Notes: a model not told the origin generated them from the letters alone. Shown: positions 11,841-22,600, counted from the stretch's first letter. The stretch: DNA of 64,000 bases from Fimicolochytrium jonesii (GCF_025526975.1 NW_026515669.1:1860001-1924000); one strand, 5' to 3'. Numbers and translations: made by a program.

Positions 11841-12777
11841 ATGGACAACTTCTTACCAGGCTCGGCGAGTTTAGTGGATTGCGTCGACAGTGCGTTTTGG
11901 CCTCGAGATTATCCCACGTTGTGTCATGCGCAATGTTCATTCGAGGACGGTCTTCTTACCGTTTTGCGTTGATATTGCAGAGAAACTGCTGGTGATACTA
12001 CGCGACAGCCGCAAACTGATAGGGTGGTTGCGGTCCTACGACCAATTCGGTATGTGGAGGGGATCCTCAATTCAAGAGGGTTGTCATGGTGCAACGGGTC
12101 AAGGGCTCAGCGCCGGCGATCTCACACCCCCCGTTCTTCCCTTACAGCAAACCTGGTACTGCAAGATACGGTCGAACGAACCTATGCGGAGGACAACACG
12201 TACGGCGATGTGTACAGGGGGATCTTCTTAATACGCGGGGAGAATGTTGTTATGTTGGGTGAGATTGTATGTATCGGTGTCTGGATCGAGGAGAGTGGAC
12301 GGGGATATCGAGAGTGATGGGAAGTCGACGGGAGAGGAAGTGTTTGGAGGTTGGGATGTGTATCGTTGATGGAGTGGGACATCATGCGATGTGGGAGAGA
12401 CCGCGAGGCGTGCCTTGTCAGCATGTCTCCGGCGCAGGAACCCACGAAAGCGGTGGCATGAGCAGACCTTACTAGACGGAACATGTAGGGAGTCCCGTCA
12501 TGAACCACCATCCGCAGACCAAGGCGACAAGCATCTAATCCGAACGGCGGCGACCCTCCATCAAAGGCACTAACCACCACTCCTTCCCCTCCCTCACACC
12601 TAGGACAAAGAGAAAGAAACAACTGTAATGTCGACCCTCCAGCAAGTCCCCATCGAGACCGCCAAAGCGTCTGCAAAGAAAGAGCTCGACAGGCGGAAAC
12701 GGAACGAGAAGGCCCAGAGGCGCGCGTTGCAGGAGAGGGGGTTCTCGGTGGATGGGGTCGAGGGGGATCAGTATTAG
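11841..12777 (+). CDS. LSM1: Sm-like protein Lsm1 (mRNA decapping activator)
   Basis: Four exons: [16 protein letters not shown] / [22 protein letters not shown] / [10 protein letters not shown]...[17 protein letters not shown] / DKEKE...GDQY. Confidence 0.93.
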
Positions 12778-13572
12778 GGGTGTGGGGGATTGAAGACGAT
12801 CAAAGAGGAGCGGAAGGTTCACTATTGATGGAGCGATGTTGGTGGTGGCTTGGCAATTCCTGGGGTGCCGTTGGTGAACGGACAAGTGCTCTTGCTATGT
12901 TTATGCCGTCCCATGATGGCCGCTATGTGGAGACCACATCCGGCCGCCCCGACGGGTGGCAAAGAGAAGCGCCGAGGAAATGCACATACCTTCGGACGAA
13001 ATCCCGTGCACATCGCAGCACCACATTACATAGTACAGCACCCTGACTGTACATTGGGAAAGATCAAACACTTCGGGTGGACGTGGTTCAAGAAATACAG
13101 AATCACATCTTCCTTGTTGCGCAAAGATACCTTCGCTGGCAATGATGCATAATGGTTCGTTTCATATCGTCATAACACTCCCGCTGCAGATAAAATCCCT
13201 CACTACAGTACCCCCTACGTACCACCACCACCGGACTCCTCTTTCTCTTCGTCCGGACTCCGGTATGCAAGGGCGAGGAGTGTTGCACACGTGGGGAGGT
13301 GGTGTTGTCGTCGTCGTCGGAGGCTTTGGAGAACGAGCCGCACGCGTCTGTCGAAGTTGTTCTTTGCCCAATGCCCCGCCCGCCCCTCAGCACAACCGCC
13401 TGCCAGCGACGATTAGCACAACAGTCAGTGCAACACCCACCACACCAACCCTGATACCAACCTTGCATACCGGGATACCTCAGATACCCCTTCCACCTCG
13501 CTTCCTAATCTGCCACCTTTCACCCTGTCACAAAAACGCTTTTCTCCGACGCCGGACACGCCGATTCCAACA

Positions 13573-14290
13573 ATGGGGCAACACCACACCCCTAACCCGA
13601 CACCTCCACCATCCACCTCCCACCCCGCCCCCTCAACCCCCTCCCCCTCCTCCTCAAACGCACCACCGCAATCTCCATCACAACCACCACCACCAACCCC
13701 CGGCCTCCCCTTCTGGGAACAACGGCGCGCCGCCTGGACCGCCAACCACACGCCATACACGGAGAACCCCGCCCCCGTGACGGACCAGTGGATCAGAGAT
13801 AACCCGGCGCTGGCGGATGTGGATGCGACGGCGTATGATGCGATTTATGCGGCGCTTGTGGAGGGGAGGAGGTTTGCGAGGAGGACGCCGTTGCCGTTTG
13901 TTACTTCTGTGCTGGTAGGTTCTGGATGGGAGAGAGAGAGGGGTGGCACTGAAGGCTGGGCCGGGCACGAGGGGCAAGAATTGCTTTCGGTTGACGAGCC
14001 ATAGGCGAGCCTCGGCGAGCGTTGGAATTTCGCGAACCAAGCGGGCTTAGGGGAGTCGTGCGGTCGGGCAGGATGGTGGTTTTCATGCGTACATGCGAGC
14101 GATTCGAATATGCATCAACCAACCTCGCCCGATTTCCTTCCGTTCACAGGTCCACGGATGGAAAAAGGAAGGTCTCTGGGCACCCGCAACAGGGATAGGA
14201 GGATCGAACAGTAATCCGTACCCGCTCGCCGACTCGAATAGCAATTCGCAGAACGTCTCTTCTGGTGTCATTTCTGGGCAGCGGCAGTGA
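13573..14290 (+). CDS. DUF4050 / Gag1-like clamp domain protein
   Basis: GLPFWEQRRAAWT, YDAIYAALVEGRRFARRTPLPFVTSVL, intron, then VHGWKKEGLW. Start uncertain. Confidence 0.7.
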
Positions 14291-14518
14291 GCGAAGAGTG
14301 GAATGGGGTTGGTTTCTCTCATAGAAGGGATTGGCAAGGGGCTCTGCAACGGCCTCGACAGTGGCGGCTCGACGGGGAGAAGCATATCATATAGACAGCG
14401 GGACTGTCTACATTCGCACGGGGGGGTACAGATGCGCCATGAATTAGGGCACGCGAGGCTAACTAATAGAAGTAGGGATTCATGGAGGCGTTAAGCGCCC
14501 TAGCGTCATTAGGGTGCA

Positions 14519-14700
14519 TAGTTTCCGTTGGGTAGTGTAGTCTTTGCAACAGCTCGATATCGAAAAAGGCTGACACCCCTGCTGTTGCGGCTTTGCACTC
14601 ATCATCATTTGGTAAACTACATAATACAAGTTGCCATCATCGGCGATGCCTCCGGCAGAGGTACAATGATGTGGATGGCAGATAACCACCACGGAAAATT
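14519..14700 (-). ncRNA. Putative Fanzor omegaRNA scaffold (candidate guide continues to ~14499)
   Basis: Begins immediately after the Fanzor stop codon. Nested inverted repeats (plus-strand coordinates): TTTCCGT 14522-28 / ACGGAAA 14691-97; TGTAGT 14536-41 / ACTACA 14616-21; GCAACAGC 14546-53 / GCTGTTGC 14581-88; TGCCATC 14632-38 / GATGGCA 14674-80. Sense strand starts UUUUCCG and ends GGAAACUA. Confidence 0.7.
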
Positions 14701-14705
14701 CTAGA

Positions 14706-17700
14706 CTACTGGTTACGGGAGAATGCGTCTGGTCTGCCATTGCCAAGCATCACCGAACGCACAATCGAGAGGAAATTCTTGGTACTTAGGACGTCCCGAT
14801 TGTGCACTTTCATCCGTAGTCGTAGTGGTCGTCGTCTTCCAGGAATCTCAAATGGCGTCCAGTCTTGGTTGATACATTCGGGGTTGGGGCAACCCACCAA
14901 TCCATGGACGTATTCCATTCTTCCCCTTCTAGCTTGCCACGGCCGAGATGACAGCCGCCGTCGGATGTTTTTCTTCACACGACCGTGGCAGTTGGGGCAC
15001 ACGGACGACGTTCGATACTCATCTAGCAAGTAACATGGAATGCCGTTTCTCGCAAAGAGTGTGCGGAATCTGTTCCATGATGAGTTAGCATATTATAGTA
15101 CATAAAAAACAATGATGGTCACTCACCCCTTGGTCTTCGATGACTCCTGAAAGCGCATCGTTTTCCCAGCATCGCTCCAATCACCCAAGATGACCGAAAA
15201 ATGCTTTCCATACCGGCGTCGCATGTTCTTAATGAGCTTGCTCTCAGACTTTTGCCGCAGTGAGAACGCCTTGAATCTGCGAGCGACGTCAATCTCATCC
15301 CGGTAAAACTCATCCAGGGTGGGATCTGGGATATGGATGGATGTCAGCCCATGTATTACTAAATTTGAAGATCAAAATTGAAGTAGAACATCATACCCGC
15401 ATGTACGTGATCCACAATGAACGCTGAGAACGCCTCGATGTGCATGCTCTTGTGCGACGGAATATGTGATTCCATCTCAGCGATGCCGGCATTGATCTTT
15501 TGCTCTCTCATGTCTCTTTGAAAGTACCGAGACTTTGTCTCGACCGCCCGTTGATTGGATGTGTATCTGATATGGGGTGGTGCATTGTGAGAACGCTGCA
15601 ACCGAATGTCGCCGCAATGGGGATGGTGGGGATAGGGGCGGTGGGAGCAGCAGCGGAGACGGGGGGGTGGCGGGCGGAGACGGGGGGCTGGCGGGCGGAG
15701 ACGGGGGGCTGGCGGGCGGAGACGGGGGGCTGGGGGCGGAGACGGGGGGGGGGGGGGGGGGGGGGGACAGCGGGGACAGCAGGGCAGTAGTAATCAACTG
15801 AAACGTACCGAAATGGCCGCTCCTTCTCGATGTCTCGACAGAACAGGAGGTCACGCTTGCCCGGATCAATGCAGACGATGTTTGGAGCCTCCCGTAGTTC
15901 CGCAATGTGGTGCTCAAAATACAGCTGCTTGACTTCTTCCCGCATTTGGGCCTTGCTGCGCTTCCGGGCCCGATACCCATACTTGAGCCCTGGCTTCTTG
16001 AAGTGGATGGTAATGGAATACCCGTCAGTGCTAATTGACCCATCGAACTTGAGACCAAGCTTCTTTCGATGTTTGAAGACCTTGTCCTATAATCCGTCAT
16101 TCAGCGACGTAATCTGATTGAAATAAGCACATAAGGATAGAGACTTACATTCACGTTGATAAACTGCCCCCACAGCTCCCGCTTGCGTTCATCAGTGAGT
16201 TTTCCCATGCGACGTCTGCTGACATCCAGGATATGAGTACTTAGGATCAGCGTGTTAATCCGAACAGACGACTGGATTCGAGATTTGCGCAGTGGGATAG
16301 CGGAAAACAGCCGCATTCCACGGCGCTCATAGAGGCGCGAGAGGTCACAGTAGGCACCTGTGATGAGGCGAGGCAGGTGCGGACCATGATTAGACAAAAG
16401 AGGGCACCGCAGGGGGGGGGGGGGGGGGGGGGGGCGGTTTCGCGTTATGTTTGGCGCGCGGCGAACACGTCGGCGGCGCTGGTTACGTTGACGCCATGGC
16501 GGTGGGCAAGAGCATCGGTCGCGCCCCGGGCCCGCTGTGCGCGCACTGGCGGCGTCGTCGAGGCCGGGGGGGGTGGGGGCCCCGGCGAGAGATACCCTAT
16601 ATGATGGCGATATCTATAATCGATGCCTGGTAGTTTTCGCTGGTCGAATGATGACTCGGTGAACACCCTCAGTGGTTTGTGGGAGCCAAGCGTGCGGGCG
16701 CCCAGCGCCAACAGCGCATCGCGAACCACGTCGGCCGGGGTCCCGGCGGGCAGCCACTGGGCGTCGGTGTACCAAGTAAGGCGCTCGCTCGCGTCGCTGC
16801 GCAGCCACCCACGAGTTGGGGGGGGGGGGGGGGGGGGGGGGGGTAAATATACAGGATGCAACTCACTTAAATATGGCATTGCGTCCACCGCAAGGCTGTA
16901 CGCAAGCGGTTCATCCTGGGGAGGAAACAGAGCCCATAACTCGTCGAGGAGAGTCTGCTCAAGTCGTGTGAGGCCGGCAAACTCCTCTTCCGTTGGGTAC
17001 TCTTCAAATGTCGCGTACTTTGTGAATTGACGGACACGACGATAATAGTGTCGCCGCTGCGCTCTCCGGAGATGCCGTTCGATTTGCTTCAAACCAAGCT
17101 TTTCATTGACGTAGCGCAGAAACATTTGCATGAAATGCTCTTGTACGTTAACTTTGAGGTTTGTGAGGATGCTCGTAGCCGTGTACGCTGCGGTCTGTTG
17201 GCAATTTCGCATGCGGATGGGGACGAATCCGTGAACATTACAGTACTCTTGAACCCGTGGACGCAACTCTTGCGCAATGACCGGATTGCCGTTGTAGCCT
17301 GGATTGTTTAGCAGCTCAAATATCACGCTGATGTGCTTGTCCGTGATGTCCGGGAAATCGTGCAGAGGATGATCAGCTGTGGTGGGCAGACGTAGTAGTC
17401 AGGACATTGTTTCAAGAAATATACAGTGTAGTGTACGCCAAAAACTCACCAAGGTAGTACTTCAGGAAGAAGGTGGTGTGGCGCGCAAGGATGTGAACAT
17501 TGCCGATGAATGTTCTGAGGCGCTCCCTTTGAACTTGATTCTGATGATTCTGATTATGGATTCGATGAAGGGAAACCTTGGTGCAGGCATGCGTCTGCGG
17601 GCGGGGTCGTTGAGCAGGGGGTGGAGGCGGGGGTGGAGGCAGGGGTTCATACACCAGGGATCCCGGTGTGCTGGGAAAACGGAAAGGGATGGGCGCGGGG

Positions 17701-17996
17701 AGGTTCAGTGGGCGCTGCAGACCCCTGTCCGCGGGTGAAAGCCCTCGCTGCGGCTGCTGCTGCTGCCCGTCTTCATCGCCGGAGCTCTCGCCAACCATGT
17801 CTGCAATTGCTTGGGGCAAGTGGCGATGGACAGAGGGCGGGAGCTCGAATCGTGGGGGTTGCAATAGTGTGGCTGGCAGACGTATGGGCAATCGCGGGGT
17901 AACCGGAGCAACCTTCCTCCTCTTCCGCCGTGGTGTGGTTGCTCCAGTAAAGATGCCACACCACAGGTGCCCCTGGAGCGCCTGGTGTGATGACAT
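14706..17996 (-). CDS. Fanzor1 (eukaryotic TnpB-family RNA-guided endonuclease), 7 coding exons, about 758 aa
   Basis: Manual splicing of exons 17996-17450, 17376-16867, 16357-16149, 16086-15809, 15566-15397, 15325-15127 and 15069-14706 (all GT-AG) gives 2277 nt in frame without stops. Motifs: FSAIPL, FDGSISTDGYS, RuvC-I CIDPGKRDLL, VILGDWS, RuvC-II LLDEYRTSSVC, Zn finger CPNC...CPNPEC, RuvC-III HNRDV, C-terminal RPDAFSR. Confidence 0.92.
15640..15780. repeat. 21-bp G-rich minisatellite (GGCGGGCGGAGACGGGGGGCT, ~4 copies) plus poly-G tract inside a Fanzor intron
   Basis: Tandem units are directly visible, followed by a G run at 15744-15766. Confidence 0.9.
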
Positions 17997-19617
17997 GATG
18001 GCTGTGCTGTGCTGTGCAGGCAAGTGGTGAGATCAAGGGGACCGAGCAAGGGGCCTGCTCTCGAGGAGGATCCAGGAATCCTGCTTACCTGCGATGTGTT
18101 GAAGGCTTTTAGAGGTTGGTTGGGGGTTTGCCTTGATGTGCGAGGGTGGAAGTGTGCGCAATTGTGGTTTGGTGGAACTACATAATATACCCGGTTTCTG
18201 CATGTTCAAAAGGGTCACCACGATCGCGATTGGCCTACTTCTCCACCCCTCCAACGTCTGACAGTCGGAGCGCGGGCCAGACCAGGGCAAACGACAGTGC
18301 AGCAGAATATAGGGGCGACAACGAACGCAGAGCACGAAACTAACCCTCTGTTGCCTCAACCAGTTCAACTGACGGCCACAGTGGGAGCTGCTGCTGGGAG
18401 CGCACGGGCGAAAACCCCCCTCTGTCGAGCCACGTCTGCTTTCAGAACCATGCATTCAGAGCTACGAAGTGGGGCCGGGGGGGGGGGAGCATGGGTAAAT
18501 CTATAATGCGCGCCTAGAGCCTGCCATATTGTTTGTTGTAACGGTCTGGCTACCGTTCTGTAGATGCCTGTGCAGTGTCAACCTCATCTGGGTCACATCA
18601 GAGTTAAAAAGTCTACCACAGTCCTTAATTGGTAAAACAATGCACTCTGGCTCGTTGAACTGTTGTTCACGTCGCGGTAGATCCCCTCTTTGGAGTTTCC
18701 GAGACGAGCGAGCTCTAGTTGAGGTGCGATGAAACGAGTGAACTCCTTGCTCCGCTTGCCGCTCCGACTCTCCCGGGGAAGAGGTGAAGCGGGACGTAGC
18801 GAAGCCAATGGGGCCTGCATAGAGCTAACCCACGCCGACGGCCATATCCAATTGCAGCGTAGTACTCTTCGTGCCCATTCTCCTGAATCTGTTCGTTTTC
18901 CCGTTCGCACAATCTGCAGCGTCTTGGAAGTGTGTTTCCGGTCGGTGTCGGATTGAGAGGACATGTTCCTTATTCTCTGAGTGGTCACTGAATTTGCTAG
19001 GCGCTTTGCTGGGCAATCCTGAACTCACCGGGCCGCATCGGGTACGCGGAAGCCGTCCGTCGCCTCAGAGGCAGTTTGAGCAATCCTCTGTGGAACTTCT
19101 CGAATCCAAGCCAAAAGTAAGCCGCACTATCGTCACTGAACACTTCCTCGATTCAACCGTGTCACAACGATATGTTATATATCTATGGTGCGTTTATTAT
19201 GCAGGCAATGTCCTCAGCAGCTGCAAAGGAGGCTGGCGTGGAGGGTTTTGGCGTGACGGAGGCGACAAGCGGGCGGGAGCCTCAGCGTTCGCGGGATTGC
19301 ATTCTTTGCGAATCCGGTAGAACTCACTTTACCTAGAACACAAATGACTCTTTGGTTTCTCGGTGGTCAGCGGCTTGAGAGGTCCAGTGGACAGTGGCGC
19401 CTATACACTCTGGAGGTTCCAGAACTCTCCGCGAGGTTCCCGAGAATGGAGAAGCGTGGAAAGGCCGTACTGACAGTTTGACAGGATCGCGTGAGTCGTC
19501 AGTCGCGTTGCGTCCGTCCGACAAGAGATCGACAATACAGGCAGGCACTCGTTTCCCCACCCTTTCCGTCGGGATTCAGATCGCACTCTCACAAGCATAA
19601 CGGATACACTCACAGCA

Positions 19618-22600
19618 ATGCCCATATATCATCCACTATCATTATCAGCACTCCTGCTCCCACTTCTCACTCTCATCGTCCTCACCGTCACCCTTTCCCC
19701 TCCGTGCGCAGCCGCGTCTTCAGACTCTCTCACTAGCGTCGCTCTCGCCAACTCAGCACTACTATCACACCCCGTCCCGACGTGCCCTACAGGACAGTTC
19801 TGGAATTCGGTATTGCTAAAATGTGATGGGTGTGCCGCGAATCAGGTCGTTGGTGTTGGAGGTAGGGCGAGCGATAGCGTGCATTCGTGGCTTTGAGGCG
19901 AGCGGTGCGCGATGATCTGCGGGGAGTTGCGACCGCGGCGGAGGGTCCCCTGCGCCAGAGGGGAATATCCCTATTATGGTTCTGAGCGAGCCGCACCGAG
20001 CGTTGAAAAAAACATCGCGAGCGAAGCTAGCCACGCCCCTCTTAAAGCAGCCCAACATTCTTGTCGCGAGCTCGGACCGAGCGCTAAATCATTCGTCGAT
20101 GGTTGATAGGTTGTTGATGGTTGTTGATTGTTGATGGTTGATGGTTGTCACTCTTCATTGAATTTAGGGAGATGCGTATGTGCATCTGGATACTACCGCG
20201 AACAAACGAACGGGACCGGCATATTGCCGGATCAGACATGTGTTGCGTGTCCTGCAGGGCAGGTAAGCAATGTGGGTCCAAACCACCATGTCCCTATACC
20301 TGATGTTTCTAAACCGATCGTGTCCCTTCATCTGAATGTGTTGATAGTACGCATCAGCAGACGAGACCTTCTGCCGCACCTGCATCCAACCCTCCGACCC
20401 ATCCCTATCCGGCACCCAATGCACATGCGGCGTCGGAGAGTATCTAGGTATGTCCCCCACCTCACCCCATCTTCCCTCCAATATCCTTGAATCTAACATC
20501 CTCTACTATCATCAGTGGACAGAGACGCCGCCACTGCTCTCCCACTTGCATCTGCAACATGCACTCCCTGCCCCATCTACGCCTACCCAACGCGTAACCT
20601 CACGACCTGCATCGAATGTCCGCAGCACGTCATGCAGGCCGTCTATGCGGCCGACTCGGGAACGTATGAGTGTGTGTGCCGCGGGGATTTGGGGTTTAGT
20701 GAGACTCCGGTGGGTTATTTGAGTTCGGTTCCGTCTGTTGGGAGCGGGATCCCATCTCGAAGCGTCAAGTGCCCGTCATTCCCTAACCCCTCCCACGCCT
20801 CATCATCCAGCAAGACGGCACATGCATCGCCTTAGCCAGTACATCCGCCATCCAATCCAGAGTGCCCGCCTCAAGCATCTACACCGTCACTTACAGGGTA
20901 TGATATCTCTCCCATTCCCTACATATGTAGCACTGTTCATCGATATCTACTTGACGGCACACAGGATATCCTAACTCCCAGCGGCACCTCGACAACCCTC
21001 ACCGCCCGCTCCGACATCTTCGCATCAACCCTTATCGGCGCCGCTGCCGGCTGCGAGGTAACATATGCCCATCTCTTTCCCATGCCCCATTACATCCCAC
21101 CACCCGCAACTCATCCCTATCAATCCACCATCAGTTCGACTGGGACACCGAATCCTGCCAACTCCTCGCGAACCTCTGCGTGCTGCAGCTCTACGACTCC
21201 TCGGCGTCGGCGTGTGCGCTTTACGCCCGGGTTGCGCAGGCTAAGGCGCAGGGGGCGGGTGAGGGTGATGAGTGAGTACGTTTGTGCGGGGAGGGTTTAT
21301 GGGCGAAGCGGGGAGGAGATGGTTGGCGTTCAATGTGGGACGGCAGTTCGAAGCGGAGAGAGCTATTCTGACCCTATTTTTGTGGAACAGGTTAAGAGGC
21401 CTCCCACGAATATACTACGGGCTCGGCACGACGCTAGAGGACTCGACGACCGTTACGAGCCAGGTGGTCACTCTACCGGCGGGGTCAGATACGGTACGCC
21501 GCAAGCAGACGAAACGTGCAGTGCTTGTGAAGTTGATTGATGCCCCACTGAAGGATCAGCTGAACCTTCCTCCTACAGCTCAACCTTCTCCTCGGCGCCT
21601 ACACACTCAACGGCACATTCCTAGGCTACGAGCCCGTCGGCGCTCAACTACAGGTTACATTCAAAATTCTCACCCCATCCCCAACTCTCGTAGATGCTAA
21701 CGAGGTGAAACGATGCACAGTACTGCCTCCAAACCCCGATCGACCAAACGACCGCCTGGCTGAAAATTGGGCATAACTTTGAGGGTTCATGTCGGGTGAA
21801 TCTGACCAGTCTCCTCCAGGGACGGGCAGGGGTTGTCTTTTATCAACTATGTGGGTGAAATATCATTCATTTCATCATCATATATACCGACACATCACTG
21901 ACCCAACCATATCACAACCCCCCCAGACATCCGCGACGCCACCTCAACCCTCCTCCCGATCCCAATCCGCCTCACCAACTACCGCGCCACGGGCGCCCGC
22001 CAACCCAACCTCGACCCCGACCCGCTCAGCTACGGCTCGTCAACGCTGTTCCGGCGGTTCTTTGTCACGGATGGGGTCAGTGGGGTTGAGGGGGGCGTAA
22101 GGAGGGCGGTTAGGGGCGTGCAGGGGGTGCGGGTTTGGTGAGTTGACCGTGCAGGGCAGGAAGGGGACTTGGGGTTTGGGGTGGGGCCTGATGGAGTTTT
22201 TTTGTAGGATAAGAAAAGCGCCCGGGGCGAGGAGCGTGTACATCCCTGTTGTGGATCTCACGTACTTTGAGCGGGACGTCAGCACGCTCTCGGGGGCCGA
22301 CGGGGGTTCCGATGTCTCGTTTCCGCAGGTAACTTCTTACATCCCCCTCCCCGTACACATCTTTCAATGTTGACATTCCTATCATGATACAAACAGGTGA
22401 CATTCGAAATGCACTACACCGCCCCCCTCGACTCCTTCTGGAAAGCCGTCAAGATCGTATTCGCGCTCGTATGCGTGTACGCCGGTTTTCTGGCGCTGTA
22501 TCGCGCGCGGGCGTGGAGCGCGCGGAATCTGGGGGCGGGGGAGGGGTGGGATGTTCAGGTATGTCATATCATCCATCCGCATCATCCACCCAGGATCATA

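What the first reader, a model, noticed from the sequence alone, without database searches (positions are those of the whole stretch)
14706..17996. Intact, intron-split Fanzor1 RNA-guided nuclease hidden across seven exons
The ORF track shows only fragments, but six canonical GT-AG introns join them into one uninterrupted 2277-nt frame (about 758 aa). The RuvC triad is complete: D in IDPG (~15866), E in DEYRTS (~15019) and D in NRD (~14794). A CPNC/CPNPEC zinc finger and the Fanzor1 TDG motif are also present. Fanzors are established eukaryotic TnpB-derived programmable nucleases (SpuFz1 comes from the chytrid Spizellomyces). That this copy is expressed and active is inference; it would be a new ortholog with its own TAM and RNA.
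Basis: partly seen in the sequence, partly recalled or inferred. Interest (0 to 1): 0.92.

Follow-up and report, generated by a model that had tools for sequence, protein, structure and literature searches.

The report
Intron-split Fanzor nuclease in a chytrid
A chytrid fungus carries an unbroken seven-exon gene for a close relative of the known gene-editing enzyme SpuFz1; it likely uses an RNA encoded just after the gene to cut DNA, probably at a different target motif, so it is a useful new member of a known family rather than a new kind of system.

Summary
Confirmed. Six GT-AG introns join seven minus-strand exons (17996-14706) into one stop-free 2277-nt frame, 758 aa. The product is 44% identical to SpuFz1 over 639 columns (E 7e-173), with no gap at any junction, and keeps the RuvC triad D496/E655/D730 and four zinc-finger cysteines. 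A public Fimicolochytrium jonesii gene model equals residues 349-758 exactly: it uses introns 2-6 but misses the N-terminal half. It is one of 33 related gene models named to that species; introns are shared among copies, so the family likely spread as DNA. A 7-bp hairpin resembling the conserved first omegaRNA stem-loop starts 7 nt after the stop, but a blind model did not recover it, and its 3' end is unknown. No terminal inverted repeat and no transposase were found. Two of six TAM-reading residues differ from SpuFz1. Expression and cleavage are untested, and two conserved residues are changed. Intron-bearing Fanzors are published. Verdict: new member of a known kind.

The parts
17450..17996 (-). 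Exon 1 (aa 1-182): about 130 aa of Pro-rich, predicted disordered extension with a basic NLS-like RRKRRK stretch, then the first WED strand and start of REC
   Evidence: SpuFz1 homology begins at aa 132; residues 1-128 of the paralog model have pLDDT < 50
17377..17449 (-). Intron 1, 73 nt, phase 1
   Evidence: junction contiguous in 11 of 33 paralog models and in SpuFz1
16867..17376 (-). Exon 2 (aa 183-352): REC domain, with TAM-reading positions Q242, Q243, A246
   Evidence: 8gkh hit E 1.2e-24; residue map
16358..16866 (-). Intron 2, 509 nt, phase 1; about 370 nt of unexplained sequence between two poly-C tracts
   Evidence: junction identical in public model P0075
16149..16357 (-). Exon 3 (aa 353-422): REC/WED, with R400 (SpuFz1 R291) and the changed N387
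   Evidence: 8gkh hit E 6.5e-13
16087..16148 (-). Intron 3, 62 nt, phase 0
15809..16086 (-). Exon 4 (aa 423-514): WED with TDG, unwinding residue Y458, RuvC-I D496
   Evidence: 8gkh hit E 3.1e-17
15567..15808 (-). Intron 4, 242 nt, phase 2, with a poly-C tract and 21-nt tandem repeats
15397..15566 (-). Exon 5 (aa 515-571): RuvC helices
   Evidence: 8gkh hit E 9e-8
15326..15396 (-). Intron 5, 71 nt, phase 1
15127..15325 (-). Exon 6 (aa 572-637): RuvC with the GDWS motif
   Evidence: 8gkh hit E 1.2e-16
15070..15126 (-). Intron 6, 57 nt, phase 2; an in-frame stop follows at once if it is retained
14706..15069 (-). Exon 7 (aa 638-758 and stop): RuvC E655, zinc finger C662/C665/C698/C703, RuvC D730
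   Evidence: 8gkh hit E 1.3e-30; Pfam Cas12f1-like_TNB E 0.003, below its cutoff
14671..14699 (-). Candidate 5' end of the omegaRNA: U-run and CC, then a 7-bp hairpin (14692-14671) resembling SL1 of Fanzor1 omegaRNAs
   Evidence: fold z -2.95 for 40 nt, 1 of 200 shuffles as good; same layout after the ORF in L001, L004, L006 and in published Spu and Pp omegaRNAs (by eye); not recovered by a blind model
14548..14670 (-). Candidate rest of the omegaRNA scaffold; 3' end unresolved (possible ends near 14625, 14571, or beyond a hairpin at 14590-14548)
   Evidence: alternative folds by length; whole-region z-scores near 0
18012..18088 (-). Likely seventh intron, in the 5' leader (GT donor at 18088; three tandem acceptors ending 18012, 18007, 18002)
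   Evidence: sequence and branch-like motif; paralog model P0086 joins the two flanking blocks

Best explanation
This is an unbroken seven-exon Fanzor1 gene of the SpuFz1 clade, one copy of a multicopy family in a chytrid genome, whose protein likely binds an RNA encoded just after its stop codon and would cut double-stranded DNA matching that RNA's 3' end. Shown: the frame, the homology, the catalytic and zinc-binding residues, the paralogs, and introns shared between copies. Inferred by analogy with SpuFz1: the mRNA is spliced; the basic N-terminal stretch imports the protein into the nucleus; RuvC/TNB grips the SL1 hairpin; about 15 nt of flanking DNA transcribed past the element's right end act as the guide; REC/WED read a TAM next to the target (likely not CATA); and D496/E655/D730 cut. 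The cut would fall on an allele or site lacking the element, so repair from the occupied copy would keep or restore it. The element encodes no transposase here and was likely copied as DNA by an enzyme acting in trans. Odds: Fanzor1 gene with this exon structure about 0.97; omegaRNA starts at about 14699 about 0.75; this copy cleaves DNA about 0.55-0.6.
For: Stop-free 758-aa splice. 278 of 639 columns identical to SpuFz1, E 7e-173; triad 3 of 3; 9 of 13 heteroduplex contacts and 3 of 4 stem-2 contacts identical. The AlphaFold model of the 89%-identical full-length paralog P0082 (pLDDT 79, pTM 0.73) matches SpuFz1 at E 9e-51, TM 0.90 by target, then PpFz1 and GtFz1, with Cas12f/TnpB far behind; the model of this locus's own residues 349-758 ranks the same way. 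Quick tree: the window protein sits in a 100-supported group with 6 F. jonesii paralogs, sister to a Gaertneriomyces protein. 13 of 33 F. jonesii models held, this locus included, keep all three catalytic residues and four cysteines. Mis-spliced paralog models read into introns 1, 2, 4, 5 and 6 at the same sites. An SL1-like hairpin follows the stop; SL1 is the conserved part of Fanzor1 omegaRNAs and the rest is unconstrained (PMC11423790). Only 3 of 183 conserved sites are privately changed, within the range of other copies (1-13).
Against: N387 replaces an Asp invariant in 30 of 30 aligned relatives (this locus was not in that alignment), and D584 replaces a conserved His. SpuFz1's fourth metal ligand N385 is Gly here, as in nearly all F. 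jonesii copies. Only 8 of 17 SL1 and 5'-end contacts and 1 of 4 linker contacts are identical. The hairpin loop has an extra U inside the motif that is CGC in the other relatives seen. A covariance model from three relatives did not list the candidate among 10 matches at E <= 10. No inverted repeat or target duplication delimits an element, unlike Spu-1. The one intron-containing Fanzor tested in PMC10530073 formed an RNP but did not cleave.
Confidence: 0.72

Rival explanations
1. The gene is a recently silenced or mildly decayed copy: a real Fanzor1 frame, but no longer expressed, or cleavage-dead, kept intact only because the family amplified recently.
For: Non-conservative changes N387 and D584. 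Several paralog models lose the frame near the C-terminus or are partial. No recognizable element ends. Extra U in the hairpin loop.
Against: No stop or frameshift in 2277 nt, and 12 of 12 splice sites canonical. Triad and zinc finger intact. Many short paralog models may be annotation truncations, as this locus's own model is.
Confidence: 0.2
2. The family is domesticated or binding-only: the protein binds RNA-guided DNA targets to repress or mark mobile DNA and does not cut, the long disordered N-terminus serving as an effector platform.
For: Six or seven introns and a 130-aa extension absent from SpuFz1; no TIR or transposase found; N385 replaced by Gly.
Against: Triad retained in 13 of 33 models. 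Many dispersed near-identical copies fit mobile DNA better than a domesticated single gene. Asp-x-Gly is the usual RuvC-I motif of TnpB and Cas12 (recalled, not from a call).
Confidence: 0.06
3. The Fanzor is cargo of a TIR-less tyrosine-recombinase (Crypton-like) element, which would explain the missing inverted repeats.
For: One paralog model, P0102, fuses a recombinase-like region (PF00589, E 6e-4, below cutoff) to a Fanzor piece. A Crypton-linked fungal Fanzor family is described (PMC3627910).
Against: 1 of 33 models only. That region has no convincing match in the window. Its only full-length relative found also carries reverse transcriptase (P0112), which points to a neighbouring or nested DIRS-type retroelement.
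Confidence: 0.07

Closest known systems
SpuFz1 / Spu-1 element of Spizellomyces punctatus (PDB 8gkh, 9ceu-9cez; PMC10432273, PMC3627910)
   Same: 44% identity over the whole folded core; same domain order, D/E/D triad, zinc finger, Y345-type unwinding residue, Q129/Q130 and R291 TAM contacts; SL1-like hairpin just after the stop; multicopy, with no transposase in the element.
   Different: Six coding introns and a likely leader intron, against a single ORF in Spu-1; about 115 more N-terminal residues; R96 loop shortened and N133 is Ala (TAM likely differs); N385 is Gly; no 30-33 bp TIR or TA duplication found; scaffold beyond SL1 not similar; naturally K/R at 3 of 5 sites where K/R boosted SpuFz1.
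CrFNuc-1, intron-containing Fanzor1 of Chlamydomonas Helitron2 elements (PMC10530073)
   Same: Spliced Fanzor1 gene, multicopy, guide RNA expected from the 3' untranslated region.
   Different: No Helitron transposase in this window; sequence not compared here; CrFNuc-1 showed no cleavage in that paper.
PpFz1 and GtFz1 (PDB 9cf0-9cf3, 9cer; PMC11423790)
   Same: Same fold (Foldseek E 1e-29 and 8e-18 for the paralog model); SL1 conserved.
   Different: 16-21% identity; no FRI insertion; canonical third Asp, where GtFz1 has Asn.
IS200/605 TnpB and Cas12f
   Same: WED-REC-RuvC-TNB architecture; RNA-guided cutting.
   Different: 7-14% identity and weak fold scores (E 1e-5 or worse); larger REC lobe; eukaryotic gene structure.

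Membership tests
Fanzor1 (SpuFz1 clade) | Eukaryotic TnpB-homologous protein with WED/REC/RuvC/TNB order and enlarged REC | tested here: met
   44% identity to SpuFz1, E 7e-173; fold matches; tree (quick method)
Fanzor1 (SpuFz1 clade) | RuvC triad with the Glu placed just before the zinc finger, and four zinc-finger Cys | tested here: met
   D496/E655/D730 align to D383/E541/D606; C662, C665, C698, C703
Fanzor1 (SpuFz1 clade) | omegaRNA scaffold at the 3' end with a conserved SL1 | tested here: inconclusive
   Hairpin in the right place and register, single hit of a post hoc descriptor in 64 kb; blind model negative; no Rfam match
Fanzor1 (SpuFz1 clade) | Multicopy, mobile-element context | tested here: met
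   33 related F. jonesii gene models on many contigs, mostly 78-94% identical; sits between host genes
Fanzor1 (SpuFz1 clade) | Guide- and TAM-dependent dsDNA cleavage | not testable with these tools
   Needs an RNP assay
Spu-1-type TIR element | 30-33 bp terminal inverted repeats with TA duplication | tested here: not met
   No inverted match above 13-20 bp at chance-like scores between the flanks; a decayed or deleted left end is not excluded
Helitron2-borne Fanzor | Rep-helicase gene, terminal hairpins and short asymmetric TIRs | tested here: inconclusive
   No such family among 26 frames scanned (long ORFs and local frames, not every exon); a hairpin exists at 14590-14548, but the ends are undefined
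Crypton-type tyrosine-recombinase element | Linked recombinase gene, no TIR | tested here: not met
   No recombinase in the window; the single fusion among paralogs looks DIRS-like

The most novel reading that the evidence does not exclude
An active, intron-rich Fanzor1 with a new TAM that gained six or seven spliceosomal introns in its own lineage while still mobile, spreads as intron-bearing DNA without terminal inverted repeats (for example by self-cutting and repair from occupied copies), and is a naturally stronger editor than wild-type SpuFz1 because it already has 5 of 9 residues of the kind that engineering put into SpuFz1.
Probability: 0.15. Interest if true: 0.72.

Novelty: new member of a known kind. 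Interest (0 to 1): 0.42.

Why it matters
Fanzors are compact programmable nucleases of eukaryotic origin, and SpuFz1 is limited to a CATA TAM. A 44%-identical ortholog with changed TAM-reading residues is a ready candidate for a new targeting range. It naturally has K/R at SpuFz1 positions 300, 487 and 498 and the v3 residues at 373 and 469. It also allows a direct test of whether an intron-bearing Fanzor cuts DNA, which failed for CrFNuc-1. With an intronless relative of solved structure and relatives whose introns sit elsewhere, the clade is a tractable case of intron gain in mobile DNA. The corrected model doubles the public one, which lacks the REC lobe.

Tried and rejected
No whole genome is held, so DNA of paralogous loci, element ends, ghost copies and empty sites could not be examined. 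Sequencing-run search: no RNA holder listed; this is no evidence on expression, and no reads were laid. Pfam recognizes the protein only weakly (Cas12f1-like_TNB E 0.003-0.08, below cutoff) and gives nothing for SpuFz1 itself. The accession PF26935 precomputed for many relatives is not named by our copy. TIR searches gave only short or low-complexity matches; a 14-bp, 2-mismatch pair (18635-18648 with 14511-14524) was rejected as chance by a rough hand estimate of several expected. Window self-BLAST found no second copy of the element or its flank, and the omegaRNA start motif occurs once. Rfam: 0 matches in 12000-22000. A 29-position covariance model from L001, L004 and L006 (imperfect alignment, 3 pairs) missed the candidate; pair counts on those 3 rows were not significant (29 of 500 shuffles). 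The open frame inside intron 2 resembled RNase H by eye but had no Pfam or Atlas hit. A common origin of the introns (introner-like) is not supported: 1 of 21 pairs shares a 10-mer at shuffle p 0.005, the other 20 nothing. The recombinase link was followed up and judged incidental. The bacterial promoter scan is not applicable. Earlier-findings look-ups returned nothing. The careful tree did not finish; the quick tree was used.

Full report
Observation. Seven minus-strand exons between 17996 and 14706 give 2277 nt and 758 aa with one terminal stop, all six introns are GT-AG, and the named motifs lie at the stated coordinates. Exons 2-7, searched one by one against solved structures, each return SpuFz1 first and in colinear order. 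SpuFz1 itself (P0090; it matches the visible part of entry 16 of supplementary file 5 of PMC10432273) aligns from residue 132 to 757 at 278 of 639 identities and without a gap across all six junctions.

Where it comes from. A public model named Fimicolochytrium jonesii EV422DRAFT_583607 (P0075) is 410 of 410 identical to residues 349-758, so the window is most likely that species, a Spizellomycetales chytrid. That model confirms introns 2-6 as a gene predictor saw them but starts at M349 and lacks the REC lobe. Intron 1 is supported by 11 of 33 paralog models, including the full-length 761-aa P0082 (88.7% identical). These are predictions, not reads. The neighbours are host genes: LSm and Gag1-like clamp on one side, Meckelin on the other. 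No transposase family was seen in 26 frames scanned.

The protein. The triad D496/E655/D730 matches D383/E541/D606 of SpuFz1, whose roles are given in PMC10432273 and PMC11423790. Of six published TAM contacts, four are identical (Q242, Q243, R400, Y458); N133 is Ala and the R96 loop is five residues shorter, so a different TAM is likely. An AlphaFold model of P0082 is confident from about residue 130 and matches SpuFz1 at E 9e-51; the model of this locus's own C-terminal 410 residues ranks the same way. Residues 1-128 are predicted disordered and hold a basic RRKRRK stretch, the likely nuclear signal; such signals are common in Fanzors (PMC10530073). Against activity: N387 replaces an Asp invariant in alignment A1, D584 replaces a conserved His, and the fourth metal ligand N385 is Gly, a family-wide change. 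Three of five positions where K or R boosted SpuFz1 are already K or R here (background 8.6%, binomial p 0.006), but those sites were picked as tolerant surface positions, and 3 of 13 other proteins checked score the same (two are its paralogs). Two of four v3 substitutions (PMC13434818) are also native; this is partly circular, since that model was trained on UniRef homologs.

The family. 33 related gene models named to F. jonesii were collected; some may be pieces of one locus. 13 keep the triad and zinc finger. In a quick tree of 26 rows, the 7 F. jonesii rows group at 100, with a Gaertneriomyces and then a Phlyctochytrium protein as sisters (99, 99), apart from the S. punctatus proteins. 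Mis-spliced paralog models read into sequence matching introns 1, 2, 4, 5, 6 and the leader intron. The introns therefore predate amplification, and copies likely moved as DNA, not through spliced mRNA.

Introns elsewhere. Spu-1 has a single ORF. Of 22 metagenome loci, five cover most of the protein at 35-47% identity (L001 and L002 are the same element; L003, L004, L005). None shows an insertion at any of the window's six sites. L001 and L003 have GT-AG introns near residue 277, L005 has an insertion there, and further insertions lie near 697 in L001 and 647 in L003. Independent gains are the simpler reading; loss in other lineages is not excluded.

The RNA. Seven bases after the stop come a U-run, CC and a 7-bp hairpin (14692-14671; z -2.95 on 40 nt). 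It is in register with the SpuFz1 omegaRNA positions U5, C6, C7, U35 named in the paper. By eye, its arms differ in sequence from those of the Spu and Pp omegaRNAs while keeping the pairing. PMC11423790 reports a 7-bp SL1 in all three Fanzor1 structures and little constraint beyond it. A descriptor of this motif hits once in the 64-kb window, here, and once each at the ORF end of L001, L004 and L006, with none in L003 or L005, whose contigs end at or before the stop. It was designed from those sequences, so only its rarity counts. A blind covariance model from the three relatives missed it. The 3' end is open: a TA at scaffold position 75, a 12-bp closing helix ending at position 129 (core pair probabilities about 1.0 at lengths 129-144, lost at 160), or a longer RNA. 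The guide cannot be named. No TIR was found, so the element is not filed as Spu-1 type.

Mechanism. Most likely an OMEGA-type RNA-guided endonuclease kept by a non-autonomous mobile element: it would cut empty sites and so favour retention of the element. The homing role is taken from TnpB work (PMC10690162, start of abstract in the search listing) and is not shown for any Fanzor in what I read.

Novelty. Fanzor introns are known, up to about 9.6 per kb; this gene has 2.6 per kb of coding sequence. I found no paper that names this ortholog. 'Fimicolochytrium' gave 17 papers, 15 listed, none on Fanzors by title or abstract, and searches showed none. Supplements of PMC10432273 lack the name and the accession stems tried (one picture PDF not searched, one file too large). 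The negative in the PMC10530073 supplements is uninformative because 'Spizellomyces' is absent there too. Most subscription papers are not searched. Papers seen: PMC10432273 parts 1-3 of 8, and supplement 5 part 1 of 2; PMC11423790 passages and part 1 of 11; PMC10530073 passages and section 10; PMC3627910, PMC13434818 and bioRxiv 2023.08.09.552727 passages only.

Verdict. A real and well-supported Fanzor1 gene, a new member of a known kind, with practical value as a candidate editor and modest evolutionary interest. Interest 0.42.

Noticed in passing
window 16448-16816 (- strand), inside intron 2: A 123-codon open frame continues exon 2 between two poly-C tracts of 20 nt or more; possibly an insertion into a C-run. 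No Pfam or Atlas hit.
   Followed up: partly
window 18002-18203 (- strand): If the leader intron uses its third acceptor (18002), an upstream ATG at 18203 is in frame and would add 40 residues; most paralog models that reach the N-terminus start at the 17996 equivalent.
   Followed up: partly
window 14548-14590 (- strand): A strong 8+6 bp hairpin about 115-155 nt after the stop; could be part of the omegaRNA or a terminal structure of the element.
   Followed up: partly
window 16149-16230 (aa about 395-403) and paralogs: The WED segment around R400 (SpuFz1 TAM contact R291) varies strongly among paralogs (R, H, Q, C) while its flanks are conserved; copies may differ in TAM reading. Most paralogs also have TNG where this copy has TDG.
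   Followed up: no
protein P0102 (another F. jonesii locus): Gene model fusing a tyrosine-recombinase-like region to a Fanzor fragment; its nearest full-length relative has reverse transcriptase too.
   Followed up: yes
L006:3327-3420: An omegaRNA-like structure with a long second stem ending like the Spu scaffold (z -4.36, 0 of 200 shuffles): a clean further ortholog.
   Followed up: partly
L013-L018, L021: Distant Fanzor1 relatives share a conserved right end about 60 nt after the stop, followed by variable sequence: a multicopy element with readable guides.
   Followed up: no
window 14086-14268 (- strand): A short frame with a motif that recalls the N-terminus of Nop56/Nop58 (from memory); no Pfam hit.
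   Followed up: partly
window 43141-46334: Local tandem duplications (67-190 nt) with strong GC and AT skew, around a 572-codon frame (43855-45573 +) without a Pfam match.
   Followed up: no
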